Source: Gemmataceae bacterium
Lineage (GTDB): Bacteria > Planctomycetota > Planctomycetia > Gemmatales > Gemmataceae
Direction of reading: 5' to 3'
NCBI GenBank assembly: GCA_036783645.1
Contig: DAIPWT010000009.1
Coordinates: forward strand, 9,118-73,117
Length of the DNA stretch: 64,000 nucleotides
The translations under genes and the position numbers were made by a program. Below are positions 385-48,921 of the stretch, in pieces. Numbering within the stretch: the stretch's first letter is position 1; each line of letters opens with the position of its first letter. The notes under the pieces are model-generated. The model was not told the DNA's origin. It saw only the letters and a list, made by a program, of their open reading frames with translations, and did no database searches.

Positions 385-408
385 AGTTAGGGGTCTGTGT
401 TTGTAGTC

Positions 409-468
409 ATATAGGACTTATAGGACTTATAGGACCCATTGGTCCTATAAGTCCTATTGGTCCTATGG
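409..468. repeat. A/T-rich palindromic array of 9-bp units (CYTATARG cores), copy 1
   Basis: TATAGGACTTATAGGACTTATAGGACCCATTGGTCCTATAAGTCCTATTGGTCCTATGG. Six 9-nt units; the left half is the reverse complement of the right half. Lies between two convergent genes. Confidence 0.85.
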
Positions 469-517
469 AGAGTCTCGCTTACGCTCGACTCACTTTCCAA
501 CGCTTTCTGGAACAGGT

Positions 518-1210
518 TTACTTATCGCTCTTCGGCTTTTCCGGGGCGGCGCCAGGACGAGGACCACGCTGCGGCGCGGGGAACTCAAACTTCTCGCCGT
601 TCAGCTCTTTCCATTCCTTCTTCTGGTCGTCGGTCAGGCTGTTGACGGTCTTCTCCATCGCTTCCTTCTGCATGGCCTGAATCTTCGTGAAGATTTCGCC
701 CATCTTGGTACGATCACCGCCGGCGGCTGTGAACATTTCCTGAGCGTCCTTGGCCATCTCCTCCGTAGAGTCTTTAATGCTCTTTTTCTGCGCGTCGGTC
801 AGCTTCAGCGAGGTCTGAACGTCTTCTTTGCTCAATGCGCGCAAGCCGCCGGCTTGCACTTCCAGCTGCTTGAGACGCTTGACCTGATCGGCCTTGAGGA
901 CGGTGGGAACGGCCTTTTCGATCTCTTCCGTTTCCGCTTTCCGCAGCTCGGCCCCTTTCTCACGGTTCATGTCGGCCCGGGCTTTGGCGATGTCTTCTTT
1001 GTACTTGTCGGTGATCTTCGTGATCTGGGCCTTCTGGTCGTCGGTGAGCTTCAACTCTTCCTGGACCTTCTCCATGCCCAGGAGCTGGGCGGCGCCCGGC
1101 GCCGGAAAACCGCCGCCGGGACGGCCGCCCGGTCGCGGCTGGGCGAAAGCAGGGGAAGCCGCCAACAGGACCAGGCCGACGGTTACAATCTTGGTGCAGA
1201 CGTTACGCAT
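518..1210 (-). CDS. secreted LTXXQ-motif (Spy/CpxP-like) periplasmic protein
   Basis: Internal ATG at 1208-1210 gives signal peptide MRNVCTKIVTVGLVLLAASPAFA. Three LTD(D/A)QK helices; Lys/Glu-rich helical composition. Confidence 0.65.
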   Translation of the reverse strand: MRNVCTKIVTVGLVLLAASPAFAQPRPGGRPGGGFPAPGAAQLLGMEKVQEELKLTDDQKAQITKITDKYKEDIAKARADMNREKGAELRKAETEEIEKAVPTVLKADQVKRLKQLEVQAGGLRALSKEDVQTSLKLTDAQKKSIKDSTEEMAKDAQEMFTAAGGDRTKMGEIFTKIQAMQKEAMEKTVNSLTDDQKKEWKELNGEKFEFPAPQRGPRPGAAPEKPKSDK

Positions 1211-1327
1211 TGTCAGACTCCTCCTCGTAGGGTACGGGATCAGGGTGCGAGTACGGTAGATAGAAACCCCGATATTGTATAGAGGACTCGCGCCGCGGCC
1301 TGTTTTTTCCAACTAAGGAGACGGAGC

Positions 1328-1747
1328 ATGGTGCGGATTACGGAGACGTTGTCGATTCCTGACGAGGAGTTGTCGTGGAGTTACGCGCGTTCAAGCGGTC
1401 CCGGCGGGCAGAACGTCAATAAGGTGTCGTCCAAGGCGGTGCTGCGTTGGGACGTGGGCGCCAGCCCGAGCGTGGCGGATGACGTGAAGGCCAGGCTGCG
1501 GGCGCAACAGCGTCGGCGGATCACGACCGAGGGCGAGTTGGTGTTGTCGTCGCAGCGTTTCCGCGATCAGGAGCGCAATCGCCAGGACTGCCTGGAAAAG
1601 CTGTGCGAGATGGTGCGGACGGCGACGTTGGCGCCAAAAGCGCGCAAGAAAAAAAGGCCGACGCGGGCGTCGAAGGAACGCCGGCTGGCGGAGAAACGGC
1701 ATCGGTCGGCGGCGAAATCGACGCGGCGGAAGCCGACGGGAGAGTGA
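1328..1747 (+). CDS. arfB: alternative ribosome-rescue factor ArfB (peptidyl-tRNA hydrolase, GGQ domain plus basic tail)
   Basis: SSGPGGQNVNKVSSKAVLRWD GGQ motif, about 140 aa, Arg/Lys-rich C-terminal tail, GGAG RBS upstream. Confidence 0.9.
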   Translation: MVRITETLSIPDEELSWSYARSSGPGGQNVNKVSSKAVLRWDVGASPSVADDVKARLRAQQRRRITTEGELVLSSQRFRDQERNRQDCLEKLCEMVRTATLAPKARKKKRPTRASKERRLAEKRHRSAAKSTRRKPTGE

Positions 1748-1917
1748 CGGCGAGCGGCGGGGTTTATCCCCGCCGTCCGGCCCGCCGGGATGAACCCGGC
1801 GGCTCGCCAATCTCAGATCCGGTTGCCCCGACGCGAGTCGTAACCTACCGTGTCAATAGAGGGTCAGTGCGCCAAACGCGCGCCCCGCAACCGGCCCTCC
1901 TACCGACGTGACCCGCC

Positions 1918-2835
1918 ATGAGCCGTCTCAAAAAGTTCACGAAATCGGCCCTCTGCGCCGCCTACCTCTACTCCGGCGCCGCCCACGCCCAAGAGTGGTT
2001 GCAACGCCGCGCCGGCCGTCAGTTCATGACGATCCTTCTGTTCCACCGCGTCACGGACCAGATCCCCGAGGACGGACTGACCGTCTCCACCGCACGCTTT
2101 CGCGCCCTTTGCGCCATGCTCCGCCGGCGCTTTCGCGTCGTGCCGTTGGCCGAGGTTTTTGACGTACTCCGCTCCGGCCGGCCCATGCCGCCGCGCACCG
2201 TGGCCGTCACCTTCGACGACTGCTACCGCGACAACCTCTTCGCCGCCCGCGTCCTCGCCGAATATGGATTGCCCGCCTCCTTCTTTGTTCCCACCGCATT
2301 CGTCGGCACGGATCATATCTTCCCGTGGGACCACCACCTGCCGCGCATGGCCAACCTGACTTGGGACGAGGTGCGCGAGATGGCCGACATGGGCCACGAG
2401 ATCGGCTCGCACACCGTCAACCACGCCAACCTGGGAACCGCCTCTTACGAGGAGGCGCGGACGGAGTTGTTCGAGTCGAAGGCCGTCCTGGAAAAGCAAC
2501 TCGGCCGGAAGGTGAGCTGGTTCGCCTACCGCTTTGGGGGGAGAGAGGATCTCCGACCCGAAGCGGCCGCGCTGGTGGAAGAGGCGGGCTATGAGGGTTG
2601 TCTGTCGGGCTACGGCGGCTTCGTCTACCCCGGCGCCGACGGCCGCATCCTGCCGCGCGACTCGTCGCCCGTCTACCAGGGGCTGCTTAACGTGCAGCTG
2701 CACCTACGCGGCTGTCTCCAGTGGTTTTACACCATGAAACGCGGCCTCGGCCTGCCGGACGGACTCGAAAACCGGGTCGGCGAGCGACTGCCGGCGCTCC
2801 AGATGGACAGCGGCGTGATTTCGCTTCCGCACTGA
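1918..2835 (+). CDS. polysaccharide deacetylase (NodB homology domain)
   Basis: VAVTFDDCYRDN (TFDD motif) and GSHTVNHANL (HxxxH-type motif). Size typical of the family. Confidence 0.85.
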   Translation: MSRLKKFTKSALCAAYLYSGAAHAQEWLQRRAGRQFMTILLFHRVTDQIPEDGLTVSTARFRALCAMLRRRFRVVPLAEVFDVLRSGRPMPPRTVAVTFDDCYRDNLFAARVLAEYGLPASFFVPTAFVGTDHIFPWDHHLPRMANLTWDEVREMADMGHEIGSHTVNHANLGTASYEEARTELFESKAVLEKQLGRKVSWFAYRFGGREDLRPEAAALVEEAGYEGCLSGYGGFVYPGADGRILPRDSSPVYQGLLNVQLHLRGCLQWFYTMKRGLGLPDGLENRVGERLPALQMDSGVISLPH

Positions 2836-2845
2836 GCGCGGGGTC

Positions 2846-2908
2846 GTTTAGCCGCGACCCGAAGGGGAGCGCTCTTCGCCCGCGCTCCCCTTCGGGTCGC
2901 GGCTAAAC
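2846..2908. repeat. GC-rich REP-like palindrome, family GTTTAGCCGCGACCCGAAGGGGAGCGC (probable terminator between convergent genes)
   Basis: Near-perfect inverted repeat GTTTAGCCGCGACCCGAAGGGGAGCGC...GCGCTCCCCTTCGGGTCGCGGCTAAAC. The same element recurs at 15789-15851, with a half copy at 56201-56229. Confidence 0.8.
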
Positions 2909-4113
2909 AATTTTCTCCGCAGCACCCGCACACCGTCGAAGCAGCGTTCCATCAACCGGCGCGCCTTTTCACGCGGCCCACCGCGATGGGCGCGCAGCTG
3001 AATCAACGACCGCGAAGCCGACGCCATTTGCAGCTTATACGGAGCTTCATCGGCCAGAAAATCGAACTCGCGGCGCCCGGCCTCGATGGCAGCGCGAACC
3101 GCATACGCCAGGATCACGCCGCCCGGACGGACGCTATTGGGTACATTTACGCTCCGTCCCGTCTGATAAGTAATCGTTTTGTCGCCCCACGTCATGCCGT
3201 ACAGGGCCGCGACCGGCTCGCCGCGCACGGTCAGCTGGTGCAGTTCCAGCGCGCCGCGTTCCAGCAATGTCCGCAGGATCGCATCGTGAAACTGTAAAAA
3301 ATTCGGCGAGTGGAAGACGCCGGATTGCCCGTCTCCTTCCCAGCGCGCGTGATGCAAATCGATCAGAACGCGCGTCGCCTTCTCCAGCTCGGCCGCGTCG
3401 GTCACGCGCTCCAGGCGCGCCGCGCTGTCCGCCCACTCCTCGAAAGCGCGGAGGGATCGCGTCACCTGGCGGCGATGAGTGCATGACAGACTTTTGAGAT
3501 AGTCTTCCCATGTCTTAGGTAGAGAAATGTACGGGGCGCGGGCCGTTTCGGTCGTCTCGACGGTCAAGCCGGCTTCGCGGAATGCGGCCGTAAGCAGGGC
3601 GGGCATGGGGCCGTCGCCGTCCATCATCGGCAACACGGCTTCGTCCCATGCTCCTAACGTCCCGTCCGTCAGCGCGACGACCAACCGCCGCGCCACCGCT
3701 TCCTCGGCGCCGCGCTCCGCGATCACATTGAGATGATTGGAACAAACGCCGTGGCCTTCGCGCTCGCCCGACGCCAGGAACTCCAGGCGGCGAAACGGCA
3801 CGACGCCGCGATACCAGTGCCGGCGAAGCGACAGCGGCGCCAATCCGACGAGCCGGCCCGAGTCGCGGAACAGGGCGATGCGCAGCTGCCGGCCTTGTTG
3901 CGACCCGTAGACTCGCTGCCATGTCAGCAGCCATTCCGGCGACAGCGTCAGCTCGTTGCGCTCGCTCCGCTCCAGCAGTTCGGTCCACTCCGGCCGCAGC
4001 TGTTCGGCCTCGGCCGCTGTGGTTGCCAGCACGCAGGTGAACGCGTGGGACGGCGTCAATGGTCGTCCGCCGGCCGGTGCTTGCCGGCACGGAGGCGGCT
4101 CAAAGAGTTCCAT
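2848..4113 (-). CDS. GNAT-family acetyltransferase of the CelD/BioF2-like (FemAB-like) type
   Basis: About 420 aa. C-terminal RGEPVAALYGMTWGDKTITYQTGRS...GGVILAYAVRAAIEAGRREFDFL resembles the Acetyltransf_6 core. The 3' end runs into the REP hairpin; the true start may be an internal GTG. Confidence 0.65.
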   Translation of the reverse strand: MELFEPPPCRQAPAGGRPLTPSHAFTCVLATTAAEAEQLRPEWTELLERSERNELTLSPEWLLTWQRVYGSQQGRQLRIALFRDSGRLVGLAPLSLRRHWYRGVVPFRRLEFLASGEREGHGVCSNHLNVIAERGAEEAVARRLVVALTDGTLGAWDEAVLPMMDGDGPMPALLTAAFREAGLTVETTETARAPYISLPKTWEDYLKSLSCTHRRQVTRSLRAFEEWADSAARLERVTDAAELEKATRVLIDLHHARWEGDGQSGVFHSPNFLQFHDAILRTLLERGALELHQLTVRGEPVAALYGMTWGDKTITYQTGRSVNVPNSVRPGGVILAYAVRAAIEAGRREFDFLADEAPYKLQMASASRSLIQLRAHRGGPREKARRLMERCFDGVRVLRRKLFSRDPKGSAGEERSPSGRG

Positions 4114-4487
4114 AGACGATAACTCTGATATTTGAAGAAGTCGCGCACGGGGGATCGGCCGAACGGCGTCGGTGTGCGGCCGCGCCGGCGCAGACTGTTG
4201 TTGACCACGTAGACGGCGCCGCGCCGCTTCGTCTCGGCCGTTTCAAACGTGAGGGCGAACGAGATTGTCACCGCGTTGTCAGTCGTCACCCAATGCGGAT
4301 GGTTGACCGGGATGTGAACGCCGTCGCCCGGATTCATCGTAAACGGGACCGCCCTGGCTTTCGCTTCCTCTGCGAATGGCAGCGAATCATGGAGGCCAGA
4401 GTAGAACAGCTCGATGTTTTCCTCCGACAGGATCGAACGGTCGAAGGAGATACGGCGGCGAGGGTTTGAATCATCGTCGGCCTGGCG
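4056..4487 (-). pseudogene. cupin/JmjC-like domain fragment (N-terminally truncated)
   Basis: PGDGVHIPVNHPHWV cupin-like strand motif. The frame stays open upstream of the ATG at 4337 to a stop at 4488-4490, with no ATG and only about 140 codons. Overlaps the next gene by 58 nt. Confidence 0.35.
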
Positions 4488-4600
4488 TTAGGGGGGTGAA
4501 TCGCATCCGCTGCGAGAAGGCGCCGCTATGGAGTGCGGCGCGCTGGTTCCTACGCAAGTATAGGTTAGAAAAAAAGCAACAGGCGAGCCGCTGGATTTAT

Positions 4601-4698
4601 GCAAGCGTTGGCGAGCCGGGGGCGTAAGCCCCCGGATTCTGTTTCCGTTGCAGCAGACAGAATCCGGGGGCTTACGCCCCCGGCTCGCCAACGCTTGC
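4601..4698. repeat. 98-bp nested palindrome at the left edge of the phage-like cluster
   Basis: GCAAGCGTTGGCGAGCCGGGGGCGTAAGCCCCCGGATTCTGT ... ACAGAATCCGGGGGCTTACGCCCCCGGCTCGCCAACGCTTGC. The right arm encodes the last codons of the 4672-5157 gene. Confidence 0.85.
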
Positions 4699-5157
4699 CG
4701 GCCGTAGGCCGTTCAACACGCCAACCACCTCCGCGCGGGCGTCCGGATACCGCTCCAGCGCTCGCAGCAAGGTGCGGAGCAAATCCTGTACGCCGGGATC
4801 GAGCAAGGGCGACGTCGGCTTGTCAGCGCCGCCGCGCGGCTTGGCGAGCGCCGACCAACCGGGTTTGGCCGCCGTCTCTTTACCGGGGCCAGCCTTGAGC
4901 CAGTCCACCGGCTTGCCTTTCAGCGCGGCGACCTCCGCACCGAGCCGCGCCTGCGCCTCGGCCTGACGCACCGCCACGGCGAAGAGACGGTATTTCAGGA
5001 TCTGCCGTTTGCCATCGCCCTTGCGCATCCATTCCTCGAAGTCCTCGCGCGAGACGCCGGCGGCCTCGGCGGCGACGTGCGCGAAACCGCCGGCGCGGAC
5101 GTAGGCAAGGATGGTCGTTTCGACGGCGGGCGTCAGTAGAGGACGTTTCTGAGCCAT
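4672..5157 (-). CDS. small HTH protein resembling phage terminase small subunits
   Basis: N-terminus LLTPAVETTILAYVRAGGFAHVAAEAAGVSREDFEEWMRKG...YRLFAVAVRQAEAQA fits the TerS-like homeodomain pattern. Last gene of the phage-like operon. Confidence 0.5.
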   Translation of the reverse strand: MAQKRPLLTPAVETTILAYVRAGGFAHVAAEAAGVSREDFEEWMRKGDGKRQILKYRLFAVAVRQAEAQARLGAEVAALKGKPVDWLKAGPGKETAAKPGWSALAKPRGGADKPTSPLLDPGVQDLLRTLLRALERYPDARAEVVGVLNGLRPASVGEPGA

Positions 5158-5174
5158 AAGAAGAGGTCCATTTC

Positions 5175-5224
5175 ATAGGTCCTATAGGACTTATAGGTCC
5201 TATAGGACCTATAAGTCCTACAGG
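5175..5224. repeat. A/T-rich palindromic array of 9-bp units, copy 2
   Basis: ATAGGTCCTATAGGACTTATAGGTCCTATAGGACCTATAAGTCCTACAGG, in the intergenic gap between the ABC-GNAT gene and the HTH gene. Confidence 0.85.
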
Positions 5225-5228
5225 ATTG

Positions 5229-6356
5229 TCAGCCGCTCAACAAAGCGCAAGCCTGGTATCGAGGCAGAGCGGGGCCGACATACTCAAAGCCGGCCGTGAG
5301 CCGATTGGTCGCATGTTTGAGGCCGCGCCGTCCACGTTCGCCGCGCGAGACGAGGCTCGGCGACCGCCGCAGTCGCCAGAGCGATGAACGCAGACGAGCG
5401 CGGATCATGGCCGGGTGCGTGGTGGTGGACACGGCACGGCAGCCCAGGCCGCGCCACAATGACGCGACCAGGGCCGAGAGCGCATTACCCACGCCGACGC
5501 CTTGATAATCCGGCAAGCAAACCGTCCGGTGTTCGCGCCGCGTCGGCGGGCCGGCGCCAGGGAACGGCAGCCACGCACTGAAGGCGACCGGCCGTTCGTC
5601 CCACGATGCCAGGAAGCAGACGGCCGAGCGCGCCAGTTCGCCGCTCAGGTAGTGATGCGGAGCGAACAGCGGCCACGCCGATGTCTGGCAACGAACGATT
5701 TCGAGGCGGACGTGGGGCCGTCGCCGAAGCAACCTCCATTCAAACCGACCCTCGGCGGGTTGATAAACCCAATCCGGTTGCAGCCACGGAATCACGTCGT
5801 CATGGCAAGTCACGGCGACGAAGCGCAGGCCGTTGGCACGGACGGCCCGCGCCGCCGCGGCGCTGCCGATTTGCGCCACAGTGCGGTCCACGACGCTGGT
5901 GTATTCATCCAGGACAACGAGCGCCGGTTTAGCTGAGGAGAGCGCTTCGGCGAGGAGGCGGGCAAGCGTGACGCGAAATTGTTGGCCGGTGGACAGGACA
6001 TGGAACGGCCGCAGCCATGCCGGGGGCGACGAAAAGCCGACCGCCGATAGCAGACTCGTCACGTCTTTGATCGAAGTGCCATCAGGAAAGGCGTCGAGGA
6101 GGGCGCGATCATGCGGCCAGGAGAGGGCGGCGGAGTGCAAGGTCTCGCGCGGCCAGAACCAGCGGGCGAGCGTGGACTTGCCGCAGCCGGACGGCCCGGT
6201 GATGAGGCCGACGTTCCACGGCCGATCCTCAATCGGCAGGGTCGCGGCCCACTGAAGGCGCGACGTTTTCTCAGGCGCCAGGTCGAACAGCCCGCGCACT
6301 TGCTGGACGCGCGGCGATTCGACGACGAGCGACTCGACGGTGACGACGGCTTGCAT
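5229..6356 (-). CDS. soluble ABC-type ATPase fused to a C-terminal GNAT-like acetyltransferase domain
   Basis: Walker A GPSGCGKST, ABC signature LSTGQQ, Walker B LVVLDEYTSVVD, H-loop VTCHDD. C-terminal CLPDYQGVGVGNALSALV fits the GNAT motif A (QxxGxG). Start moved to ATG 6354-6356 because the longer ORF reads through the hairpin. Confidence 0.7.
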   Translation of the reverse strand: MQAVVTVESLVVESPRVQQVRGLFDLAPEKTSRLQWAATLPIEDRPWNVGLITGPSGCGKSTLARWFWPRETLHSAALSWPHDRALLDAFPDGTSIKDVTSLLSAVGFSSPPAWLRPFHVLSTGQQFRVTLARLLAEALSSAKPALVVLDEYTSVVDRTVAQIGSAAAARAVRANGLRFVAVTCHDDVIPWLQPDWVYQPAEGRFEWRLLRRRPHVRLEIVRCQTSAWPLFAPHHYLSGELARSAVCFLASWDERPVAFSAWLPFPGAGPPTRREHRTVCLPDYQGVGVGNALSALVASLWRGLGCRAVSTTTHPAMIRARLRSSLWRLRRSPSLVSRGERGRRGLKHATNRLTAGFEYVGPALPRYQACALLSG

Positions 6357-6376
6357 AGTGCAATCTCCAAAAGATT

Positions 6377-6473
6377 CACCACAAAGACACAAAGAACACA
6401 AAGGATGACAAATTGAATAAATACTTAATGCCTATCTTTTGTCTTCCTTTGTGTTCTTTGTGTCTTTGTGGTG
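6377..6473. repeat. hairpin with arms made of three CACAAAG units and an A/T-rich loop
   Basis: CACCACAAAGACACAAAGAACACAAAGG ... CCTTTGTGTTCTTTGTGTCTTTGTGGTG. Unit spacing is 8 then 9 nt. Lies between the ParB-like and ABC-GNAT genes. Confidence 0.85.
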
Positions 6474-6483
6474 AATCCGTTTT

Positions 6484-7053
6484 TCAGCTCAACAGCGCCC
6501 GGCACTTCAGCCCTTCCGTCTGGAAGCGTTGCAGCAAGGCGATTTGTTCCTCTTCATCGGCGCATTCAATCAGGACGAGGTATTGTTCCGCCGGGTCCGG
6601 CGCCGCCTTGCGCCCCGCTCCGGCCAGCGTCTTTTCGACCGCCGCGCCCGCCGACGCGATGGACCGCCACAGATTCACCAGCACGTCGGAATCCGCGTCG
6701 GTCACGCGGCGCAGCGCGTCGAGCTTTTGAGCGTCGTAGTCGGCAAGGGCGGCGAGCGGGTCGATGGACAGCAACAGCGCGCGGGCCTCGCCGTCGTCCA
6801 CGTCCAACACTTCCACGTCCACTTCCATATCGGGTCGCATCGACTGGCGCAGGTGGCCGTCGATCAGCTTGAGTCGGCCGTCGGGAAGCTCGTAGGCCAG
6901 CAGACTCCGGGCGAAGCCTACTTCCTCGTATAAGGCGGCCAGGGCGGCGCGCTGGGCCTCGGAGTGCAAGCGCGGGTTCAGCTCATGCGGCACGAGGTCG
7001 CCGGCGCGGACGCGGCGATGGCCCTTGATGCGGTTGCGCGGCGAAGCGGTCAT
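6484..7053 (-). CDS. ParB-like nuclease (ParB/Srx N-terminal) domain protein
   Basis: LVPHELNPRLHSEAQ...LKLIDGHLR resembles the ParB N-terminal box (the usual DGHHR appears here as DGHLR). About 190 aa. Confidence 0.65.
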   Translation of the reverse strand: MTASPRNRIKGHRRVRAGDLVPHELNPRLHSEAQRAALAALYEEVGFARSLLAYELPDGRLKLIDGHLRQSMRPDMEVDVEVLDVDDGEARALLLSIDPLAALADYDAQKLDALRRVTDADSDVLVNLWRSIASAGAAVEKTLAGAGRKAAPDPAEQYLVLIECADEEEQIALLQRFQTEGLKCRALLS

Positions 7054-7069
7054 GGTAGAGTCTCTTATA

Positions 7070-7161
7070 AGGGTCTGACCGCAAAGGGCGGGGAAACCCC
7101 GCTCCTACGGCGATTTTCTTGGGTAGGGGCGGGGTTTCCCCGCCCTTTGCGGTCAGACCCT
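7070..7161. repeat. GC-rich 92-bp palindrome inside the phage-like operon
   Basis: AGGGTCTGACCGCAAAGGGCGGGGAAACCCCGC ... GCGGGGTTTCCCCGCCCTTTGCGGTCAGACCCT. Confidence 0.85.
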
Positions 7162-7516
7162 AAACATCGTTACTCGGCCACGTCAGGTTGATGCGCTGTA
7201 GGTAGACGATTTTGTGATCCACCGCCGTGCCGCGGCCCACGCGGGCCACGGCCTGCACCTGAAACCTCGTCCCCGATTGGTTCGACACGTACACGGCGGA
7301 GCCGCCTGGCACACCGCTATAACCGTCGCGGACGTCCACCGTCGTCTCGACGCGCAGGATGTGCGTGTAGGTGAAAATGGGATTAATCGCAGGCTTGAGG
7401 TTGCGGAAATCCTCTTCCAGATAGCCCGTCGCGCCCGGCACGTCCGGCGGCGCCGGCGGCAGATTCTGCCCATGATAGATGTCACAAGTAATGTTGGCGG
7501 GCATCGGCAGGCTCAT
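7160..7516 (-). CDS. small phage head-completion (head-closure/adaptor-like) protein
   Basis: 118 aa, immediately after the connector-like gene (4-nt gap). Assignment rests on size, beta-rich composition and position only. Confidence 0.4.
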   Translation of the reverse strand: MSLPMPANITCDIYHGQNLPPAPPDVPGATGYLEEDFRNLKPAINPIFTYTHILRVETTVDVRDGYSGVPGGSAVYVSNQSGTRFQVQAVARVGRGTAVDHKIVYLQRINLTWPSNDV

Positions 7517-7519
7517 GGC

Positions 7520-8473
7520 TTACCCCTGATTCGTGGCGACAGTGTGACGACGGTACGGCGCCAACAGCGGCCGGATCACCGGCGGCGGTTGATGGTCGCC
7601 GGCGGCTTGCATCCACGTTTGAGCGGCCGCGCCAGACACCGCCTGATGAGACAAAGAAGGATCGCGCTGGGTTAGGTCGTAGTTCATCGCCACCCAGAGG
7701 GCGCACGCCTGTTGCACGGCTTCCGGCACGGTCGTATAGCCGGCCGTGTACTGCACACGGAAGTTGTGGATTCCCACTGGCCAGATCAGGTCTTCGGGAT
7801 GCAGCAATTCCGGATCGGAATAGGGGATGGCGCGGAGCAGCCAGCCGCGCGCGTCCCACTGATAGCCGGCCAGCTCGTAAGTGTGCAGCTTCAACTCGGC
7901 GTTCTGTCGCATGGCCGTGAGGGCGCCCTGCGATTGCACGCCGTCGCCGTAGCTGCTGGGCACATACAAGTCGGCGCTCGGCCATTGGCCGTAATCTCCC
8001 GTGACATCGCCGACGACTTGCGCGGTCCAACCGCGGCCGACGGCGGCGACCGCGCTGGCCAACGCGGTCAACGTCGGACACGCCGCCCACGTCAGGCTGG
8101 CCGTGGTGATCGTCTTCACGCCGGCCGCGACCTCGACCAGCTGAAGGCCGGTCGCCGTCACTTGGACGCGGCTCTGCTGGGTCGCCTGGCTGACGCTGTT
8201 ATTGACGACTTTGAGGACCGTCACAGGGCGGTAACGGACGCTATCCACCGACTGAACAGGGTATTCGCGCAGGATCAGCCGGGGATCACCCGTGCCGTTG
8301 TAAAGCTCGTCGCGTGCGATGCTGACGAAGCGGCGCCGGCAATACTTTTCGATGGCGTCGGAACAGGCCGTGACGAGCGTTTGTAGGATCGCGTTTGTCG
8401 TCGTATTGTCGGCGTAATACTGCATGGCCTGCACGGCGCGGCCGCTGGTGATGAGGTCTTTGGGGTTAGCCAC
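7520..8473 (-). CDS. phage gp6-like head-tail connector domain protein with a roughly 200-aa C-terminal extension
   Basis: N-terminus ...NAILQTLVTACSDAIEKYCRRRFVSIARDELYNGTGDPRLILREYPVQSVDSV matches the gp6-like pattern. Start overlaps the GT2 stop by 8 nt. Confidence 0.5.
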   Translation of the reverse strand: MANPKDLITSGRAVQAMQYYADNTTTNAILQTLVTACSDAIEKYCRRRFVSIARDELYNGTGDPRLILREYPVQSVDSVRYRPVTVLKVVNNSVSQATQQSRVQVTATGLQLVEVAAGVKTITTASLTWAACPTLTALASAVAAVGRGWTAQVVGDVTGDYGQWPSADLYVPSSYGDGVQSQGALTAMRQNAELKLHTYELAGYQWDARGWLLRAIPYSDPELLHPEDLIWPVGIHNFRVQYTAGYTTVPEAVQQACALWVAMNYDLTQRDPSLSHQAVSGAAAQTWMQAAGDHQPPPVIRPLLAPYRRHTVATNQG

Positions 8474-9374
8474 GGCCGGCCTCCTTTCGCCACGCCATAA
8501 TGCGGACTTTCGCCTCGCGCACGGCTTGGATGAGATTGGTTCGGCAATTCCGGTGCATCTCCCCGTCGGCGTCGTAGAGATTCAGCCCTGAAAGGGAGCG
8601 TATATGGTCGATATTTTCGTCCGTGTAGCGAGCGTAGTTTTGATCGTGGCCGATGAGATACGGGAAGACGCCGGCCCGGCGGATGCAGCGGTCGAACGGC
8701 TGTTCGGTGTCGGGATAGCCGACCTGTTGCGGCCGCGCCTCGCCGGACTCCCAGTAGCGCTCGAAGCTCCACGTCGCCCCGATGCGCCGCATTGTCGGCA
8801 TGTGGAGCATCGTGCAAGTGTGCGAGACGACGTTGCGCCAGCCGTTGGTATCCGGCCGTGGACTCATCTCGTAGCCGACGACGGGCTGGCCGGCGTCGCA
8901 CAGGCCGAGCAGCCATTCGACAAGGTCGCGCCGTCGCGGGAAGACGTCCGAATGCGAGCAGAGCAAGTACCGCGTGCGGCACAGGGCGAAGGCCAGGTCC
9001 ATCGCCGTGGTAACAGGCGCCGACGAGTGGGCATAGGCATGGGCGCGGACGTAATGGATTTCCACGTCGGGCCGACGGAGCGCCTCCAGAGTGCGGACGA
9101 CGGCCGGCGACGAACCCGTGTCAATGAGTAGGACGTAGGGCCGCACGGTTTGCAGGGCCAGCAGTTCCAGCAAGACGGGCAAGGTTTCCGGAGTTTCCAG
9201 ATGCGGTATTACCACGGTAACTTGATACTCCCACGGCTTACGGACGGCCGTACCTTCCCAGGGTCGTTGTCGGGCGCGGCAGGCAAACGGAGCGACGGCC
9301 GCTAGGGAGGATTCGTCGGCCTTGAGGATCGCCTCACGGGCGCGGGCCAAGGTGATGAGGTCGTTGCCAGGCAT
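8466..9374 (-). CDS. family-2 glycosyltransferase embedded in the head module
   Basis: VTVVIPHLETPETLPVLLELLALQT...LLIDTGSS...CSHSDVFP (GT-A fold, DxD-like SDV). Start set to ATG 9372-9374 (MPGNDL) because the longer ORF reads into the REP hairpin. Confidence 0.75.
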   Translation of the reverse strand: MPGNDLITLARAREAILKADESSLAAVAPFACRARQRPWEGTAVRKPWEYQVTVVIPHLETPETLPVLLELLALQTVRPYVLLIDTGSSPAVVRTLEALRRPDVEIHYVRAHAYAHSSAPVTTAMDLAFALCRTRYLLCSHSDVFPRRRDLVEWLLGLCDAGQPVVGYEMSPRPDTNGWRNVVSHTCTMLHMPTMRRIGATWSFERYWESGEARPQQVGYPDTEQPFDRCIRRAGVFPYLIGHDQNYARYTDENIDHIRSLSGLNLYDADGEMHRNCRTNLIQAVREAKVRIMAWRKEAGRG

Positions 9375-9391
9375 TATTTTCTCCACGGTTC

Positions 9392-9457
9392 GTACAAGCC
9401 CTGAGCGCAAGCGAGGGGTTTTCGTTTTCCCCCTCGCTTGCGCTCGGGGCTTGTAGC
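9392..9457. repeat. REP-like palindrome, family GTACAAGCC(Y)GAGCGCAAGCGAGGG
   Basis: GTACAAGCCCTGAGCGCAAGCGAGGGG...CCCCTCGCTTGCGCTCGGGGCTTGTAG. Related copies at 39241-39296 and 44936-44997. Confidence 0.8.
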
Positions 9458-9463
9458 GCTAGA

Positions 9464-9922
9464 TCAGGTGGTCACCTGCTGGCTGACCACCGAAACATCG
9501 TTGTTGACGCTGTTGGGTTTGTGAATGGCTTCGCCGGTCAATGGTACGCAGACCACCGGGATGGTGGGCGTCGTACCGCCGATGGTGAAGACCACGCTGG
9601 CCCGGACGTAGCGTTTGCCGGCCCCGAGTTGATCGGCGCGGACTTCGCTGGTGCCGATGCTGCTCGCGGCGGCGACGGTTAGCGCACTTACCGTACCGTT
9701 ATTGGTCCAGGTTGCGCCGTCGGGCGATTCCTGGACGGTCAACACGGCTGCGCACGTCGGGCTGGTGCCGCCGAAGACGCCGAGGTCGAGGACGAAGAGA
9801 CAGCGATGGACCAGCGCCAGGTCCACCTTGCCGGTGGTGAGCGTGGTGGTCGAGGTCAGTTGCTGGGCGTGGATCGGCGCGCCGCCGATGGCCAACGCTT
9901 GGGTCAGATGTTCGGTGTACAT
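9464..9922 (-). CDS. hypothetical phage structural protein (candidate capsid accessory/decoration protein by position)
   Basis: 152 aa, Thr/Gly/Val-rich beta-type composition, directly downstream of the capsid gene. No recognisable motif. Confidence 0.45.
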   Translation of the reverse strand: MYTEHLTQALAIGGAPIHAQQLTSTTTLTTGKVDLALVHRCLFVLDLGVFGGTSPTCAAVLTVQESPDGATWTNNGTVSALTVAAASSIGTSEVRADQLGAGKRYVRASVVFTIGGTTPTIPVVCVPLTGEAIHKPNSVNNDVSVVSQQVTT

Positions 9923-9950
9923 GGATGCTCCTTTATAAAGATAAGCGGAG

Positions 9951-10009
9951 TATTATAAGTCCTATAGGTCCTATAGGACCTATAAGTCCTATAAGACTAA
10001 TGAAACCCC
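9951..10009. repeat. A/T-rich palindromic array of 9-bp units, copy 3
   Basis: TATTATAAGTCCTATAGGTCCTATAGGACCTATAAGTCCTATAAGACTA, between the capsid gene stop and the next gene. Confidence 0.85.
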
Positions 10010-10023
10010 GCCCGCCAGGGTAA

Positions 10024-11340
10024 TCAGTTCAACGCCACAAACGGCGAAACCTGCGTCACGCCGTCCTGCAAAGTCACGGGCTTATCCAACCACGGCTGGC
10101 CGTCCACGCGCTCGACCACGCGCCACGTCATCTGGTTCTTGAGGAAGTTGACGTGTTCCGACGCTGCGATCTCGATCTGCATCCGGTCGCCCACGATGTA
10201 GAAACTCGGGTCGAGCAGCATCACGTCGCCCTTCGTGCCGAGGGCCGGCACCTTCTCCGTGGGAAACACCGGCCGGCCGAGCAGGCTCCAGTTCGGCGAC
10301 TTCGTCGCTCCCTGATCGATGCTGATGAAGATCGCCCGGTTGGCGCCGTCCTTGAGCTGCAACAGCTGCGGCACCACGCTGGGGCTACAAGTCCAAATCG
10401 CTTTGCCCCAAGAGATAGGCAGCAGCTTGGCCCACATGCCGGCCACGTCGGCGTACTGCACCTGGTTGGCCGTCTGCCGGGTCTGGCTGACCGTGGCCGC
10501 GGCGCCGAGCATTCCTTGCGGTTTGCCGGCCCCGTTGCCCTGCAAAAAGGCGTACTCCTCGAACCACGCCAGCGACTTGGCGAACAGCGTCATCAGGAAC
10601 TTTTCCAGGCCGATCACGCTGTCCTGCAACAGCACATTGCTGGACACCGAATATCCGGAAAGCTCCCACGCCTTCAGGTCGAGCTGCTTGAACTGCGGCT
10701 CCGTCTCGGTGCGCGTCTGCGACTCGGCGGTCCAGTACATCTGCACGCCGCCGAAGAACGGGCTGACGCCGGCCGCCTGCACCGTACTCGCGTCGAGGTA
10801 GGGGATCTGCATGGTGGAACTCGCCATCGGCACGACGAAGGCGCGCTGACGGACGAAGGTTTCTTCCGCCATGATCGACATCAATTGTTGGTAGAAGTCC
10901 GGCGGCACGGTATAGCCGCCGGTGACGCCGGACGCCTCGGCCAGGGCGGCCTTGCCGGCGTACTCGACGAAACGGCTGCCGTAGTGCTTTTCGAGGTAGT
11001 TGCGGTCGCCGCGGGCCACGGCCAAGGCCCAGTCGCCGAAGGTTTTGCCATGCGGATCGCCGTCGCCGCCAGAGCCGAACAGAACCGGCGCGGCGTTTTT
11101 GCGCGACAGCGAGCGGGCGTCGGCGAAGACTTTCAGCGATTGGTTGACGGCCGCGTCGATGCTCTGGGATTGGCGGGCGAGGGCGGCGTCGAGAGCGCGG
11201 GTGACGGCGGGGCCGATGAGATCGTCGTCCACGGCGACGGCGGTTTGCTGTTGGATGAGGTGCTGGGCGTCGGTCTCGGAAACGTCGATGCGTTCACCGG
11301 CGGCGCGGCCGAGGAACGACTTTTTCAGTTCGACAAACAT
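10024..11340 (-). CDS. HK97-fold phage major capsid protein with a roughly 110-aa helical N-terminal (delta-domain-like) extension
   Basis: GGYTVPPDFYQQLMSIMAEETFVRQRAFVVPMASSTMQIPYLD and downstream blocks match the Phage_capsid (HK97 gp5-like) pattern. 438 aa. Confidence 0.88.
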   Translation of the reverse strand: MFVELKKSFLGRAAGERIDVSETDAQHLIQQQTAVAVDDDLIGPAVTRALDAALARQSQSIDAAVNQSLKVFADARSLSRKNAAPVLFGSGGDGDPHGKTFGDWALAVARGDRNYLEKHYGSRFVEYAGKAALAEASGVTGGYTVPPDFYQQLMSIMAEETFVRQRAFVVPMASSTMQIPYLDASTVQAAGVSPFFGGVQMYWTAESQTRTETEPQFKQLDLKAWELSGYSVSSNVLLQDSVIGLEKFLMTLFAKSLAWFEEYAFLQGNGAGKPQGMLGAAATVSQTRQTANQVQYADVAGMWAKLLPISWGKAIWTCSPSVVPQLLQLKDGANRAIFISIDQGATKSPNWSLLGRPVFPTEKVPALGTKGDVMLLDPSFYIVGDRMQIEIAASEHVNFLKNQMTWRVVERVDGQPWLDKPVTLQDGVTQVSPFVALN

Positions 11341-11597
11341 GATGATACCTCACGGTGGGTCCACGGATCGAAGGCGCGAACACGCTGGGGTCCGACCATC
11401 TCCGGGCCGCGGCGCTTGACGGCTTGGCGTCCGTCTCCGATGGCGATCCCTGATGGATTGAACGGGAAGAATGTAACATTTGTACACCTACCTTCCATAG
11501 CCTAATTTGGATGAATATGAGTGCCAATGAGGGTATCTCATCTTTTTGACAGGGAATTTGCGGATTTGAGGGGAACCGAGCGTGGGCAAGACCCACC

Positions 11598-11659
11598 AAT
11601 AGGACTTATAGGACCAATAGGACTTATAGGTCCTATTGGTCCTATAAGTCCTATTGGTC
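11598..11659. repeat. A/T-rich palindromic array of 9-bp units, copy 4
   Basis: AATAGGACTTATAGGACCAATAGGACTTATAGGTCCTATTGGTCCTATAAGTCCTATTGGTC, upstream of the capsid gene and downstream of the thioredoxin-like gene. Confidence 0.85.
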
Positions 11660-11680
11660 TTTTCGATGGGGCTAATCTTC

Positions 11681-12532: not shown

Positions 12533-12622
12533 GGATCGATCCTTCTTCCTTGATGGATCTACGAATGACATGGCGATGACAGGGCGGACCCTTTTAGGCG
12601 AAGGGCGTCGCGGTGTCAAGGC

Positions 12623-12677
12623 GTGGGGCAGGTTTCTAACCTGCCAATTCGGAAGGCAGGTTAGAAACCTGCCCCAC
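12623..12677. repeat. palindromic hairpin (GTGGGGCAGGTTTCTAACCTGCC arms)
   Basis: Perfect inverted repeat with a 9-nt loop, at the 3' end of the small membrane protein gene. Confidence 0.8.
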
Positions 12678-15782: not shown

Positions 15783-15788
15783 GCATTC

Positions 15789-15851
15789 GTTTAGCCGCGA
15801 CCCGAAGGGGAGCGCGGGCGAAGAGCGCTCCCCTTCGGGTCACGGCTAAAC
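15789..15851. repeat. REP-like palindrome, same family as 2846-2908
   Basis: GTTTAGCCGCGACCCGAAGGGGAGCGC...GCGCTCCCCTTCGGGTCACGGCTAAAC, directly after the aldehyde dehydrogenase stop. Confidence 0.8.
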
Positions 15852-42639: not shown

Positions 42640-42736
42640 GAGAACCCCGGTTCTCACGCTTGCACCCTCGTTCCCATACCCTCGTTACCCTCGTTCCCAA
42701 ACAGGAGTTTGGGAACGAGAGAACGAGAGAACCGAG
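42640..42736. repeat. hairpins with short tandem units (CCTCGTT / GAACGAGA)
   Basis: GAGAACCCCGGTTCTC, then ...CCTCGTTACCCTCGTTCCCAAAC AGGAG TTTGGGAACGAGAGAACGAGAGAACCGAG. Confidence 0.75.
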
Positions 42737-42751
42737 ATGCTACTAGACCAT

Positions 42752-47752: not shown

Positions 47753-48921
47753 CTACGGGGCGGCTTGTTTCGCTTTAAGTCGTTGCATGGCTCGTAGTTG
47801 TTCCGCCGTTGCCGATTGGAGTTTCGGGTCGCCAGGCGGCTTTTCCTTTTTCTTATGCGGCCAGTCGCGGGCTTTCTTGCTGCCGCGTCGAACGTAGCCG
47901 TCTTTCGTTGCCCAGGCTAAATCACGGCCCAAGCCGCGATCCAGACAGCGTCGTGTCAACGCATGCCGCATGCTCCGCCGCACGCGGTCGCGCGCCTTGG
48001 CCGCCGACCAACGCAACGGGTCGCCGCCTCGCGCCAAGATTTGCGACGCCGTCATCAGGCCCAACAGCCACAGGCCCAACAGCGCCCACGTCAGTTCGCA
48101 CTTCGCCGCCTCGGGCGTTCGGCTCTTGCGGCAGATCGGCTTCCTGAATCAACACCGACGGGGCCTGCCTCTCGAAAAGAGAACGAACCGCCAAGACGCC
48201 AAGAGCGCCAAGAATACAATTGCCCTCTTCTACTTGGCGCTCTTGGCGTCTTGGCGGTTCGTTCTTTACACCTCAACGGCGCTGTTCAAGGAACTATTGG
48301 GGGAGAACAAGGTGCGGGAACGACCGCGGCGGCAAATCCGCCAGCATCTCTTCCAAATGCCGTCGTTCGCTCGCCGTCCCCGGCCCGATGCGAAAATCCC
48401 AGGGTATGCCCGTGCCCATGTGTAGCAACGTCGTCACGAACAATTGCGGTCCCGTCTTCTTTTTGCCCGCACACTTCAACTCGTTTTCGTTGGCCGCCGT
48501 CCGCAGTGAACGCGCACCAACCCTCATGCCGCCAGTGCCGACCGGCTCTCGTCCGCAACTGCTGTCGCAATCGTTTGCCCAGGGCCGGCCGCAGCGGCGT
48601 CAGCCATTTCAACTGCGCCTCGTACCATCCTGTGTAACTCTTGCCTAACGTCCACTTGGGAAACAGCGACCGTGCTGCCTCCCGCGTTTCCTCGAAACGC
48701 GTCTGCAACGTTTGCTCCGCGCTCCAGACCATCAGGATCGCCACCCAAAACACCCGCAGCGGCGACCATTTCAATCCCGCCACCCGCCAGCGTGAAAAGA
48801 ATTGCCCGGGCAGAAACTTCCCGATGGCGTCTTTCAAGCCGTGGCGAGAGGATACCTGAGTCCGACGCTGCCGGCGGCCCTTGCGACTTTGGGAAGGACG
48901 CTTCCTGTGCTGACGAGCCAT
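47753..48921 (-). mobile_element. degenerate IS (DDE transposase, IS4/IS701-like) remnant with frameshifts and a hairpin insertion
   Basis: Transposase-like pieces in three frames (MARQHRKRPSQSRKGRR...; ...KKKTGPQLFVTTLLHMGTGIPWDFRIGPGTASERRHLEEMLADLP; ...ILARGGDPLRWSAAKARDRV...). Family call is tentative. Confidence 0.55.
48181..48264. repeat. hairpin with arms made of three GCCAAGA units, inserted in the IS remnant
   Basis: GAACGAACCGCCAAGACGCCAAGAGCGCCAAG ... CTTGGCGCTCTTGGCGTCTTGGCGGTTCGTTC. Unit spacing 8 then 9 nt, the same architecture as 6377-6473. Confidence 0.85.

What the first reader, a model, noticed from the sequence alone, without database searches (positions are those of the whole stretch)
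409..11659. Four A/T-rich arrays of an 8-bp palindrome (CYTATARG) at exact 9-bp spacing, confined to the first 11.7 kb
Copies lie at 409-468, 5175-5224, 9951-10009 and 11598-11659. Each is 5-7 tandem 9-nt units (ATAGGACTT, ATAGGACCN, ATAGGTCCT, ATTGGTCCT, ATAAGTCCT). Read in another phase, the palindromic core CCTATAGG/CTTATAGG/CCTATAAG recurs every 9 bp, and each whole array is also a long imperfect palindrome. They are strikingly A/T-rich for this genome. All are intergenic, and three of the four punctuate the phage-like operon. By eye I found no further copy in the remaining 52 kb. Phased arrays of short palindromic half-sites are the format of iterons, centromere-like (parC/parS-type) sites and cooperative operator arrays. 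Candidate binders, the ParB-like and HTH proteins, are encoded in the same cluster. They could instead be a fourth REP/terminator family.
Basis: seen in the sequence. Interest (0 to 1): 0.65.

Follow-up and report, generated by a model that had tools for sequence, protein, structure and literature searches.

The report
Hairpin-forming 9-base intergenic repeat family
The four A/T-rich 9-base arrays are real, but they are one species-specific kind of the long hairpin repeats that fill gaps between genes in this soil bacterium and its relatives, not binding sites for the phage-like gene cluster.

Summary
There are four arrays of 5-7 head-to-tail 9-nt units (ATWRGWCYN), about 32-41% G+C in a 62% G+C window. 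Each array as a whole is a near-perfect palindrome, and there is no further copy in the other 52 kb.

The iteron/centromere/operator reading does not hold:
- All four arrays start 3-50 nt after the stop codon of a minus-strand gene.
- About 150 homologous capsid-gene loci (52-92% protein identity) lack the arrays. Only a 97%-identical relative has one.
- Roughly 70% of those homologues carry a different strong hairpin in the same spacer. Some have no spacer at all.
- Many of the substitute hairpins have arms made of tandem 7-9-nt units of unrelated sequence. The window has three more of this type.
- The ParB-like gene is conserved in 18 related loci that have no array.

The arrays are therefore a REP/STRR-like intergenic hairpin family, with a self-complementary 9-nt unit as its particular form. 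The most likely effect is through the hairpin in the transcript (3'-end protection, processing, uncoupling of neighbouring genes), or none beyond selfish persistence.

Matching 9-nt arrays occur in intergenic DNA of many phyla. I could not tell common origin from independent origin. This is a new variant of a known but unexplained kind, of moderate interest.

The parts
409..468 (.). Array 1: about 6 units (ATAGGACTT x2, ATAGGACCC, ATTGGTCCT, ATAAGTCCT, ATTGGTCCT). Palindrome arms are 411-436 and 441-466. It lies 49 nt 3' of the stop of the LTXXQ-family gene (518-1312, minus strand), outside the phage-like run.
5175..5225 (.). Array 2: 5-6 units. Palindrome arms are 5180-5202 and 5203-5225 (96% complementary). 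It starts 3 nt 3' of the stop of the AAA+GNAT gene (5229-6401, minus) and ends 17 nt before the ATG of the small-terminase-like gene (4672-5157, minus).
9944..10012 (.). Array 3: 5 units at 9949-10001, plus an outer G+C-rich stem. It begins about 11-22 nt 3' of the capsid-gene stop (10024-10026). It ends 13 nt before the AAGGAG ribosome-binding site of the next gene (9464-9922, minus). It is the least perfect palindrome (86%).
11595..11660 (.). Array 4: 7 units with 32-nt arms, 97% complementary, and no loop. It lies 20 nt 3' of the stop of the thioredoxin-like gene (11681-12619, minus) and 255 nt upstream of the capsid-gene start (11340).
10024..11340 (-). HK97-type major capsid protein gene, flanked by arrays 3 and 4. 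It was used as the anchor to collect homologous loci.
6484..7053 (-). It is conserved in 18 related loci that lack the arrays.
6373..6477 (.). Context: a different hairpin of the same architecture, with arms of tandem CACAAAGA(A) units. It sits in the next intercistronic spacer. A strain-level loss of synteny (L240) falls inside it.
48180..48265 (.). Context: a hairpin with arms of tandem CGCCAAGAG units. The architecture is the same and the unit is unrelated.
42665..42737 (.). Context: a hairpin with arms of tandem CCCTCGTT-type 8-9-nt units.

Best explanation
The four arrays are copies of a lineage-specific family of intergenic hairpin-forming repeats. Their unit is a self-complementary nonamer (CCTATAGG plus one base), so a head-to-tail array is automatically a long palindrome.

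They belong to a much larger class that fills the spacers between genes in this organism, probably an acidobacterium, and its relatives. Members of that class are long, near-perfect hairpins whose arms are often built of about 3-5 tandem units of 7-9 nt. The unit sequence is arbitrary.

Shown:
- the position just after stop codons;
- facultative presence, with turnover of the sequence at orthologous spacers;
- arm-to-arm complementarity that is higher than unit-to-unit identity;
- independence from the cluster's proteins.

Inferred:
- They arise and grow by replication slippage of the unit, combined with symmetrisation of the palindrome (template switching) or with transposition by a REP-type mechanism.
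- Once present, they act through the 20-30-bp stem in the polycistronic transcript. The stem would serve as a barrier to 3' exonucleases, or as an RNase III-type processing site, that uncouples the upstream message (for example the capsid gene) from the genes downstream.
- They do not act as sequence-specific protein-binding arrays.
For: 1. All four arrays begin 3-50 nt after a minus-strand stop codon. Two of them end 13-17 nt before the next ribosome-binding site or start codon.
2. Predicted stems have -34 to -55 kcal/mol, z = -7 to -12.
3. Of about 150 homologous capsid loci, only the 97%-identical one has the array.
4. 74 of 108 non-redundant orthologous spacers after the capsid gene fold at -25 kcal/mol or better, using unrelated sequences. 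Several others have a 9-15-nt spacer with no hairpin.
5. Many of the substitute hairpins have tandem-unit arms: GCGCAAAGG, GTGAGTG, CACAGAGAN, TTCAGTN, GGTCCTTTN and others.
6. 1.06 Mb of related loci holds 289 non-redundant long hairpins. It holds 214 period-7 arrays with at least 3.5 copies, against 41 of period 6, 24 of period 8 and 23 of period 9.
7. The window itself has three other tandem-unit hairpins and about ten plain ones.
8. The same unit recurs at several spacers of one locus in other genomes too, for example L324, L385 and L250. This makes the local clustering seen in the window ordinary for this class.
9. No protein family recurs next to matching arrays in 118 genome loci.
10. 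Published precedents describe intergenic tandem heptamers, typically four to five units and sometimes in inverted pairs, with function unknown: Geobacter metallireducens (PMC2700814), Xanthomonas and Nostoc (PMC4692102) and Beggiatoaceae (PMC4679880).
Against: - No transcript data exist, so any RNA-level effect is inferred.
- Mismatches in 126 hairpins of assignable orientation show no excess of G-U on the sense strand (35 against 54 for the antisense strand). This does not favour long-term selection on an RNA structure. It fits symmetry maintained at the DNA level, or young elements.
- The orthologous array in the 97% relative differs at about 12-16% of positions plus a 9-nt indel, against 22% at third codon positions. 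Constraint on the sequence is therefore weak at best.
- The copy number in the whole genome of this organism is unknown.
- Very similar nonamer arrays occur in intergenic DNA of other phyla. This could mean that the unit sequence itself matters.
Confidence: 0.6

Rival explanations
1. The arrays are operator, iteron or centromere-like arrays. Each 9-bp unit would be a site for a dimeric DNA-binding protein of the cluster (ParB-like, small-terminase-like or HTH), bound cooperatively as with MetJ met-boxes, omega heptads or parC iterons.
For: - The units are contiguous at exact spacing, in direct and inverted orientation.
- A ParB-like protein and a small-terminase-like protein are encoded nearby.
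- Four copies fall within 11.7 kb and none in the other 52 kb.
Against: - The arrays are absent from about 150 homologous loci, including 18 with the ParB-like gene and 71-81 with the adaptor and p152 genes.
- The same spacers hold unrelated hairpins, or nothing.
- The arrays lie after stop codons, not at promoters, and no sigma-70-like promoter is found in the region.
- Array 1 is outside the cluster.
- A 9-bp spacing puts successive sites on different faces of the helix.
Confidence: 0.05
2. The arrays are transcription terminators or attenuators. The hairpin would stop or pause RNA polymerase at gene ends, setting the ratio of capsid message to downstream message.
For: - The arrays lie immediately 3' of stop codons.
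- The stems are very stable.
- A strong hairpin is present after the capsid gene in about 70% of relatives.
Against: - No U-tract follows the hairpins on the transcribed (minus) strand, and the terminator scan does not pick them up there.
- The stems are A/T-rich, not G+C-rich.
- Arrays 2 and 3 are followed within 13-17 nt by the ribosome-binding site or start codon of a co-directional gene (an AAGGAG site after array 3), which suggests read-through.
Confidence: 0.15
3. The nonamer itself (core GWCCYAT plus two variable bases) is a sequence-specific module shared across phyla. It would be read by a widespread RNA- or DNA-binding factor, or spread horizontally, as has been proposed for TAACTGA heptamers and cyanobacterial STRR.
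For: - Four-unit matches occur in more than 118 genome loci from many phyla: Acidobacteriota, Bacteroidota, Planctomycetota, Verrucomicrobiota, Nitrospirota, Patescibacteria, Chlorobi and others.
- In loci with at least 55% G+C flanks, 61 of 71 arrays are not inside a coding-like frame, and they are 15-35 points poorer in G+C than their flanks.
- Some show the same mix of unit variants and the same arrangement of inverted arms, for example L113, L022 and L008.
- In some of these, the 7-nt core is kept while the 2-nt spacers do not pair between the arms (L113).
Against: - The degenerate pattern covers about 0.4% of all possible 9-nt units. Tandem 9-mers are common enough that hundreds of unrelated matches are expected in 596 Gb (my estimate from the densities).
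- No control pattern could be run on the genome collection.
- Within the unbiased 1 Mb of related loci, this unit occurs only in the window's own species.
- Heptamer units in the same class are highly diverse: 148 canonical units in 235 arrays. This argues against sequence-specific readers.
- No gene family co-occurs with the arrays.
Confidence: 0.15
4. The arrays are coding or ex-coding collagen-like sequence, since the unit read as GGW-CCT-ATA is Gly-Pro-Ile. They would be micro-ORFs or remnants of a collagen-like (tail-fibre) gene.
For: - The same DNA unit encodes true Gly-X-Y repeats in many viral contigs, including giant viruses.
- On each strand, two of the three frames are open across the arrays.
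Against: - No array has a start and stop codon that give a consistent ORF.
- The Gly-X-Y periodicity stops at the array edges.
- The arrays lie in 50-100-nt spacers between well-supported genes.
- Codon usage is far from that of the genome.
Confidence: 0.02

Closest known systems
REP/BIME elements (repetitive extragenic palindromes) and the TIR repeat families linked to Y1 transposases (RAYT/TIRYT), the latter reported in Acidobacteria
   Same: These are short intergenic palindromes found mostly downstream of coding regions, in several families per genome. They vary between relatives and are thought to act as RNA hairpins (mRNA stabilisation, termination) and as hot-spots for rearrangement (PMC3733652). 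Here a synteny break falls inside a hairpin.
   Different: - The arms here are tandem 9-nt units rather than a unique 20-40-nt sequence.
- There is no consistent GTAG or CGTC tag.
- No transposase link has been shown.
- The stems are longer (23-32 bp) and nearly perfect.
Intergenic long simple-sequence repeats: cyanobacterial STRR heptamers, Xanthomonas/Nostoc GGGAATC-type heptamers, Beggiatoaceae TAACTGA repeats, and Geobacter metallireducens families of four to five heptanucleotides
   Same: These are head-to-tail units of 7-9 nt in intergenic DNA, typically about four units, sometimes as inverted pairs. They differ between close relatives at the same spacer, some are shared across phyla, and their function is unknown (PMC4692102, PMC4679880, PMC2700814).
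   Different: The unit here has 9 nt and is self-complementary, so one direct array is also a hairpin. It is A/T-rich in a G+C-rich genome. I found no description of this unit when searching paper texts for its sequence.
Tandem operator or centromere arrays: MetJ met-boxes (8-bp palindromes in tandem), omega-protein heptads of pSM19035, and parC iterons of plasmid R1 (from established knowledge)
   Same: These are contiguous short units at fixed spacing, in direct and inverted orientation.
   Different: Those arrays lie at promoters or partition loci and co-occur with their binding protein. The arrays here lie after stop codons and do not co-occur with any protein.
Intercistronic mRNA hairpins: the malE-malF REP, the Rhodobacter puf operon hairpin, and phage T7 RNase III sites (from established knowledge)
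   Same: This is the closest functional analogy. A stable stem between cistrons yields a protected 3' end and unequal amounts of the upstream and downstream messages. A structural protein made in large amounts lies upstream.
   Different: There is no experimental evidence here, and no wobble-pair signature of selection on the RNA.
Collagen-like Gly-X-Y coding repeats of phages and giant viruses
   Same: The 9-nt DNA unit is identical: GGW CCT ATA codes for Gly-Pro-Ile.
   Different: Those repeats are inside long ORFs, and the Gly-X-Y period continues into their flanks. The window arrays are non-coding.

Membership tests
REP/BIME (RAYT-associated repetitive extragenic palindromes) | Short imperfect palindrome in extragenic DNA, mostly 3' of genes | tested here: met
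   All four arrays are intergenic, lie 3-50 nt after stop codons, and have arms 86-97% complementary.
REP/BIME (RAYT-associated repetitive extragenic palindromes) | Unpaired GTAG (or CGTC) tag at one end | tested here: not met
   GTAG lies next to arrays 1 and 2 only (tgtttGTAGtcat upstream of array 1; cctGTAGGAC on the minus strand at array 2). Arrays 3 and 4 have none. This is no more than chance.
REP/BIME (RAYT-associated repetitive extragenic palindromes) | Tens to hundreds of dispersed copies per genome | not testable with these tools
   Only 64 kb of this organism is held.
REP/BIME (RAYT-associated repetitive extragenic palindromes) | Associated Y1 (HUH) transposase gene flanked by the repeats | not tested
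   The window's genes were annotated only for 1-14 kb, and none was seen there.
Intergenic long simple-sequence repeats (STRR-like) | Head-to-tail units of 5-11 nt, at least 3-4 copies, in intergenic DNA at several loci | tested here: met
   Period 9, 4.7-6.8 copies, four loci.
Intergenic long simple-sequence repeats (STRR-like) | Unit number varies between strains or close relatives | tested here: inconclusive
   The arrays are identical in seven same-species contigs from other samples; an eighth (L240) has a run of N inside array 4. There is one 9-nt indel against the 97% relative.
Iterons, parS/parC centromeres and cooperative operator arrays | Co-occurrence with the cognate binding protein in related elements | tested here: not met
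   The ParB-like gene is present in 18 related loci, and the adaptor and p152 genes in 71-81. The arrays occur only in the window's species and its 97% relative.
Iterons, parS/parC centromeres and cooperative operator arrays | Placement at a promoter, an origin or a partition locus | tested here: not met
   The arrays lie directly after stop codons, and no promoter-like site is found in 1-12800.
Iterons, parS/parC centromeres and cooperative operator arrays | Specific binding by a protein | not testable with these tools
   This needs EMSA, DAP-seq or ChIP-seq.
Intrinsic (factor-independent) terminators | G+C-rich stem followed by a U-tract on the transcribed strand | tested here: not met
   The stems are 32-41% G+C. 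No T-run follows them on the minus strand, and the scan flags only a trivial plus-strand site overlapping array 4.
Collagen-like Gly-X-Y coding repeats | Continuous ORF in the Gly-X-Y frame that extends beyond the repeat | tested here: not met
   The six-frame translations show no ORF with a consistent start and stop, and the Gly-X-Y period ends at the array edges.
Intercistronic mRNA-stabilising or RNase III-processing hairpins (functional class) | Stem of about 20 bp or more in the transcript between two co-directional cistrons | tested here: met
   Predicted stems are 21-29 bp on the minus-strand RNA. Arrays 2 and 3 lie between co-directional genes, with an AAGGAG ribosome-binding site after array 3 and a start codon 17 nt after array 2.
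Intercistronic mRNA-stabilising or RNase III-processing hairpins (functional class) | Transcript 3' ends or cleavage at the hairpin, and a longer half-life for the upstream segment | not testable with these tools
   No transcript data are available. The G-U against A-C mismatch test gives no RNA-level signal (35 against 54).

The most novel reading that the evidence does not exclude
The tandem-unit hairpins, including this nonamer, may not be passive slippage products. They could be made or read by a dedicated system that has not been recognised. One possibility is a generator that lays down about 3-5 copies of a short unit and then its mirror image in the spacers between genes. Another is a widespread factor that reads the GWCCYAT nonamer, which would explain why near-identical A/T-rich arrays sit in intergenic DNA of G+C-rich genomes from many phyla.
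Probability: 0.15. Interest if true: 0.75.

Novelty: new variant of a known kind. Interest (0 to 1): 0.42.

Why it matters
For this locus, the result removes a tempting but wrong annotation (partition or operator sites for a phage-like element). It replaces that annotation with a testable one: hairpins between genes that may set the ratio of capsid message to downstream messages.

More broadly, the related loci show a very dense population of hairpins whose arms are tandem 7-9-nt units. There is about one long hairpin per 3.7 kb, with a sharp excess of period 7. These hairpins turn over quickly at orthologous spacers.

Over-representation of heptamer repeats in bacteria has been noted since 2007 (as cited in PMC4692102) and remains unexplained. 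This lineage offers hundreds of natural presence/absence comparisons at the same spacer, which would allow origin and function to be tested. The self-complementary nonamer is a neat special case, because slippage alone can lengthen a hairpin.

Tried and rejected
1. Paper-text search for the unit sequence (six 11-12-mers). It returned only unrelated primers and similar sequences.
2. Rfam. No family matches the arrays. With a relaxed threshold they hit only microRNA-precursor models, which means generic long hairpins.
3. Reading the arrays as collagen-like micro-ORFs. Rejected on the six-frame translations.
4. Looking for a gene family that recurs beside matching arrays in 118 genome loci (all-against-all BLASTP). 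None was found; the largest cluster spans 7 loci.
5. Using viral contigs to ask whether CCTATAGG-type arrays are commoner than three other self-complementary nonamers. The counts were 4 against 0, 0 and 1. All four positives are true collagen-coding repeats, so the test says nothing about the intergenic family.
6. Testing for selection at the RNA level through an excess of G-U over A-C mismatches on the sense strand. No excess was found (35 against 54, p = 0.056 in the opposite direction).
7. Testing for compensated changes between the window's array 3 and its orthologue in L281. There are six substitutions, they are not clearly mirrored, and the two copies have different best centres.
8. Testing whether self-complementary units are enriched among the heptamer arrays. 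They are not: 12 of 209, against about 10% expected for random units.
9. The genome-wide count in the source organism. It could not be done.


Full report
**Observation**

The four arrays are present as described.
Shuffles of the window give 0.01 matches.
- Tandem Repeats Finder reports period 9 at each array.
- A looser two-unit search with one mismatch finds nothing in the remaining 52 kb.
- The unit can be written ATWRGWCYN.
- Each array as a whole is a long inverted repeat. Arms are 23-32 nt and 86-97% complementary, with 0-4 nt between them; array 3 is a single overlapping palindrome.
- The predicted hairpins have -34 to -55 kcal/mol, with z-scores of -7 to -12.
- The arrays are 32-41% G+C in a window of 62%.

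**Position**

The plausible genes around the arrays are on the minus strand.
- Array 4 begins 20 nt after the stop codon of a thioredoxin-like gene and lies 255 nt upstream of an HK97-type major capsid gene.
- Array 3 begins about 11-22 nt after the capsid stop codon and ends 13 nt before the AAGGAG ribosome-binding site of the next gene.
- Array 2 begins 3 nt after the stop of an AAA+GNAT gene and ends 17 nt before the start of a small-terminase-like gene.
- Array 1 lies 49 nt after the stop of an LTXXQ-family gene. It is next to ordinary cellular genes and outside the phage-like run.

No frame across any array gives a consistent small ORF. This holds even though the unit read as GGW-CCT-ATA would encode Gly-Pro-Ile.

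None of the arrays is followed by a T-run on the transcribed strand. No sigma-70-like promoter is detected in the first 12.8 kb.

**Test of the binding-site reading**

The capsid protein was used to collect related loci. Eight contigs of the same species were retrieved. About 160 more distant loci came from metagenomes and from IMG/VR.

Same-species contigs: the arrays are identical in the seven that cover them fully; the eighth (L240) has a run of N inside array 4.

More distant loci (52-92% protein identity): none contains even two consecutive units anywhere in up to 13 kb. Only L281, at 97% identity, has an array, and it sits at the same place after the capsid stop codon.

The cluster's proteins are conserved without the arrays. 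The ParB-like protein is found in 18 loci, the head-tail adaptor in 71 and the 152-aa protein in 81, always co-directional with the capsid gene. A cis-element that these proteins needed would be expected to travel with them.

**What occupies the same spacer in relatives**

Almost every relative that has a spacer after the capsid gene carries a strong hairpin there, but of unrelated sequence. Of 108 non-redundant spacers, 74 fold at -25 kcal/mol or better. Several relatives have only 9-15 nt between the stop codon and the next start, with no hairpin. The hairpin is therefore a frequent but optional occupant of this spacer.

Many of the substitutes have arms made of tandem short units. Examples are GCGCAAAGG (L290), GTGAGTG (L306), CACAGAGAN (L313), TTCAGTN (L251), GTTGTCA (L278) and GGTCCTTTN (L268).

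The window has three more hairpins of this architecture: 6373-6477 (CACAAAGAA), 42665-42737 and 48180-48265 (CGCCAAGAG). It also has about ten plain long hairpins.

A census of 1.06 Mb of related loci found:
- 289 non-redundant hairpins with stems of at least 18 bp, about one per 3.7 kb;
- 214 period-7 tandem arrays with at least 3.5 copies, against 41 of period 6, 24 of period 8 and 23 of period 9;
- 148 different canonical heptamer units among 235 arrays, so the unit sequence is essentially arbitrary;
- the same unit often recurring at several spacers of one locus, for example L324, L385 and L250. The clustering of four copies in 11.7 kb is therefore not unusual for this class.

In one strain (L240, GCA_003508275.1), synteny with the window ends inside the 6373-6477 hairpin.

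**RNA or DNA?**

I assigned an orientation to 126 hairpins from a downstream ribosome-binding site and ORF. Stem mismatches that would be G-U pairs on the sense strand number 35. Those that would be G-U pairs only on the antisense strand number 54. There is thus no signature of long-term selection on an RNA structure. Stems are about 96% Watson-Crick, which fits young elements or symmetry maintained at the DNA level.

The orthologous array in L281 differs from array 3 at about 12-16% of positions and by one 9-nt indel. Third codon positions of the capsid gene differ at 22%. Constraint on the exact sequence is therefore weak.

These results do not exclude an RNA-level effect of the hairpin. They do mean that such an effect is inferred from position and stability only.

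**Occurrences elsewhere**

A four-unit degenerate pattern hit more than 118 loci in the genome collection and more than 120 in viral contigs.

Viral hits:
- They are mostly in A/T-rich contigs.
- All four contigs matched by the strict pattern are clearly collagen-like Gly-X-Y coding repeats.
- One G+C-rich Mu-like contig (L226) has non-coding direct arrays of a related unit, after one gene and between the large terminase and portal genes.

Genome hits:
- They come from many phyla: about two dozen from Acidobacteriota, many from Bacteroidota, and others from Planctomycetota, Verrucomicrobiota, Nitrospirota, Patescibacteria, Chlorobi and more.
- In loci with flanks of at least 55% G+C, 61 of 71 arrays are not inside a coding-like frame, and they are much poorer in G+C than their flanks.
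- Some resemble the window arrays closely, including inverted arms around a loop (L113, L008, L010, L087, L022).
- The same loci also hold many heptamer arrays and heptamer-arm hairpins, so the class as a whole is spread across phyla.

Whether the nonamer is one family with a common origin or function remains open. The pattern covers about 0.4% of possible 9-nt units, and tandem 9-mers are frequent. By my estimate, hundreds of unrelated matches would be expected in 596 Gb. No control pattern could be run on that collection.

**Literature**

A search of paper texts for the unit sequence found nothing relevant. The class has precedents, all with unknown function:
- Over-representation of heptamer repeats in bacterial genomes, and GGGAATC-type arrays, mostly of four units and some inverted, in Xanthomonas and Nostoc (PMC4692102).
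- TAACTGA arrays shared by Beggiatoaceae, Cyanobacteria and Bacteroidetes, with no evident mechanism of transfer (PMC4679880).
- Families of four to five tandem heptanucleotides in Geobacter metallireducens, drawn as paired strands and proposed as global regulatory sites (PMC2700814).
- REP elements and TIR families linked to Y1 transposases, including in Acidobacteria (PMC3733652).

**Conclusion**

The operator/iteron/centromere reading is not supported.

The arrays are best described as a lineage-specific variant, with a self-complementary nonamer unit, of a widespread class of intergenic tandem-unit hairpins whose function is unexplained. The likely mode of action is the hairpin itself, in the transcript between cistrons or as a DNA palindrome. 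This step is inferred, not shown.

The organism is probably an acidobacterium. The grounds are two full Acido-Lenti-1 RNA matches in the window and the soil and permafrost sources of identical contigs. Its taxonomy was not tested further.

Noticed in passing
window 23469-23514 (-) and 23625-23670 (+): Two full-length matches to the Rfam family Acido-Lenti-1 (RF01687), 49 bits each against a threshold of 37. They are arranged as an inverted pair about 110 nt apart. Weak half-matches to the same model lie inside the 4601-4698 hairpin.
   Followed up: no
window 2846-2908, 4601-4698, 7070-7161, 9393-9455, 12622-12678, 15787-15853, 39238-39301, 40794-40933, 44936-44997, 51051-51137, 53143-53231, 61245-61307: There are many long, near-perfect intergenic hairpins (stems 23-65 bp) of several families. 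2846-2908 and 15787-15853 are copies of one family, which also recurs in relatives (the GTTTAGCCGCGA... type).
   Followed up: partly
L247-L389 (1.06 Mb of related loci), e.g. L260 8870-8946, L306 502-566, L251 7318-7384: These loci hold a very dense population of hairpins whose arms are about 4-5 tandem heptamers of arbitrary sequence, usually placed between a stop codon and the next ribosome-binding site. Period 7 is about five to nine times as frequent as periods 6, 8 or 9. The top unit, GTGAGTG, occurs in 14 loci, including a Gemmataceae contig (L083) where a nonamer array sits in its loop.
   Followed up: partly
window 4672-11340 (-): This is a compact phage-like module: HK97-type capsid, a 152-aa protein (weak match to major tail proteins), a 314-aa protein, a head-tail adaptor (317 aa), a 118-aa protein, a ParB-like protein (189 aa), an AAA+GNAT protein (390 aa, phrog_11143) and a small-terminase-like protein (161 aa). 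No portal, large terminase or protease is nearby. The capsid, 152-aa and adaptor core is conserved in more than 150 soil metagenome and IMG/VR contigs. It could be a satellite, a gene-transfer-agent-like element or a domesticated capsid.
   Followed up: partly
window about 6443 against L240 9941: A strain that is 99.98% identical through the capsid cluster (GCA_003508275.1) loses synteny exactly inside the tandem-CACAAAGAA hairpin. Beyond that point it carries a WD40-repeat gene in place of the AAA+GNAT and small-terminase-like genes.
   Followed up: partly
L226 2071-2106 and 4497-4570 (IMG/VR contig, about 60% G+C, Mu-like portal and terminase): Non-coding direct arrays of a related nonamer (ATAAGTCCC, grading into CATCTGTCC) lie after one gene and between the large terminase and portal genes of a phage contig. 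The same phage appears in the opposite orientation as L237.
   Followed up: partly
L114 1865-2229 (Acidobacteria MAG Centralia_134): About four nonamer hairpins (ATGGGACCT/ATAGGTCCC arms) occur in series within about 370 nt, forming a BIME-like cluster.
   Followed up: no
window 46760-47286: A 141-nt tandem repeat with 3.7 copies and 76% matches, probably a coding repeat of 47 residues.
   Followed up: no
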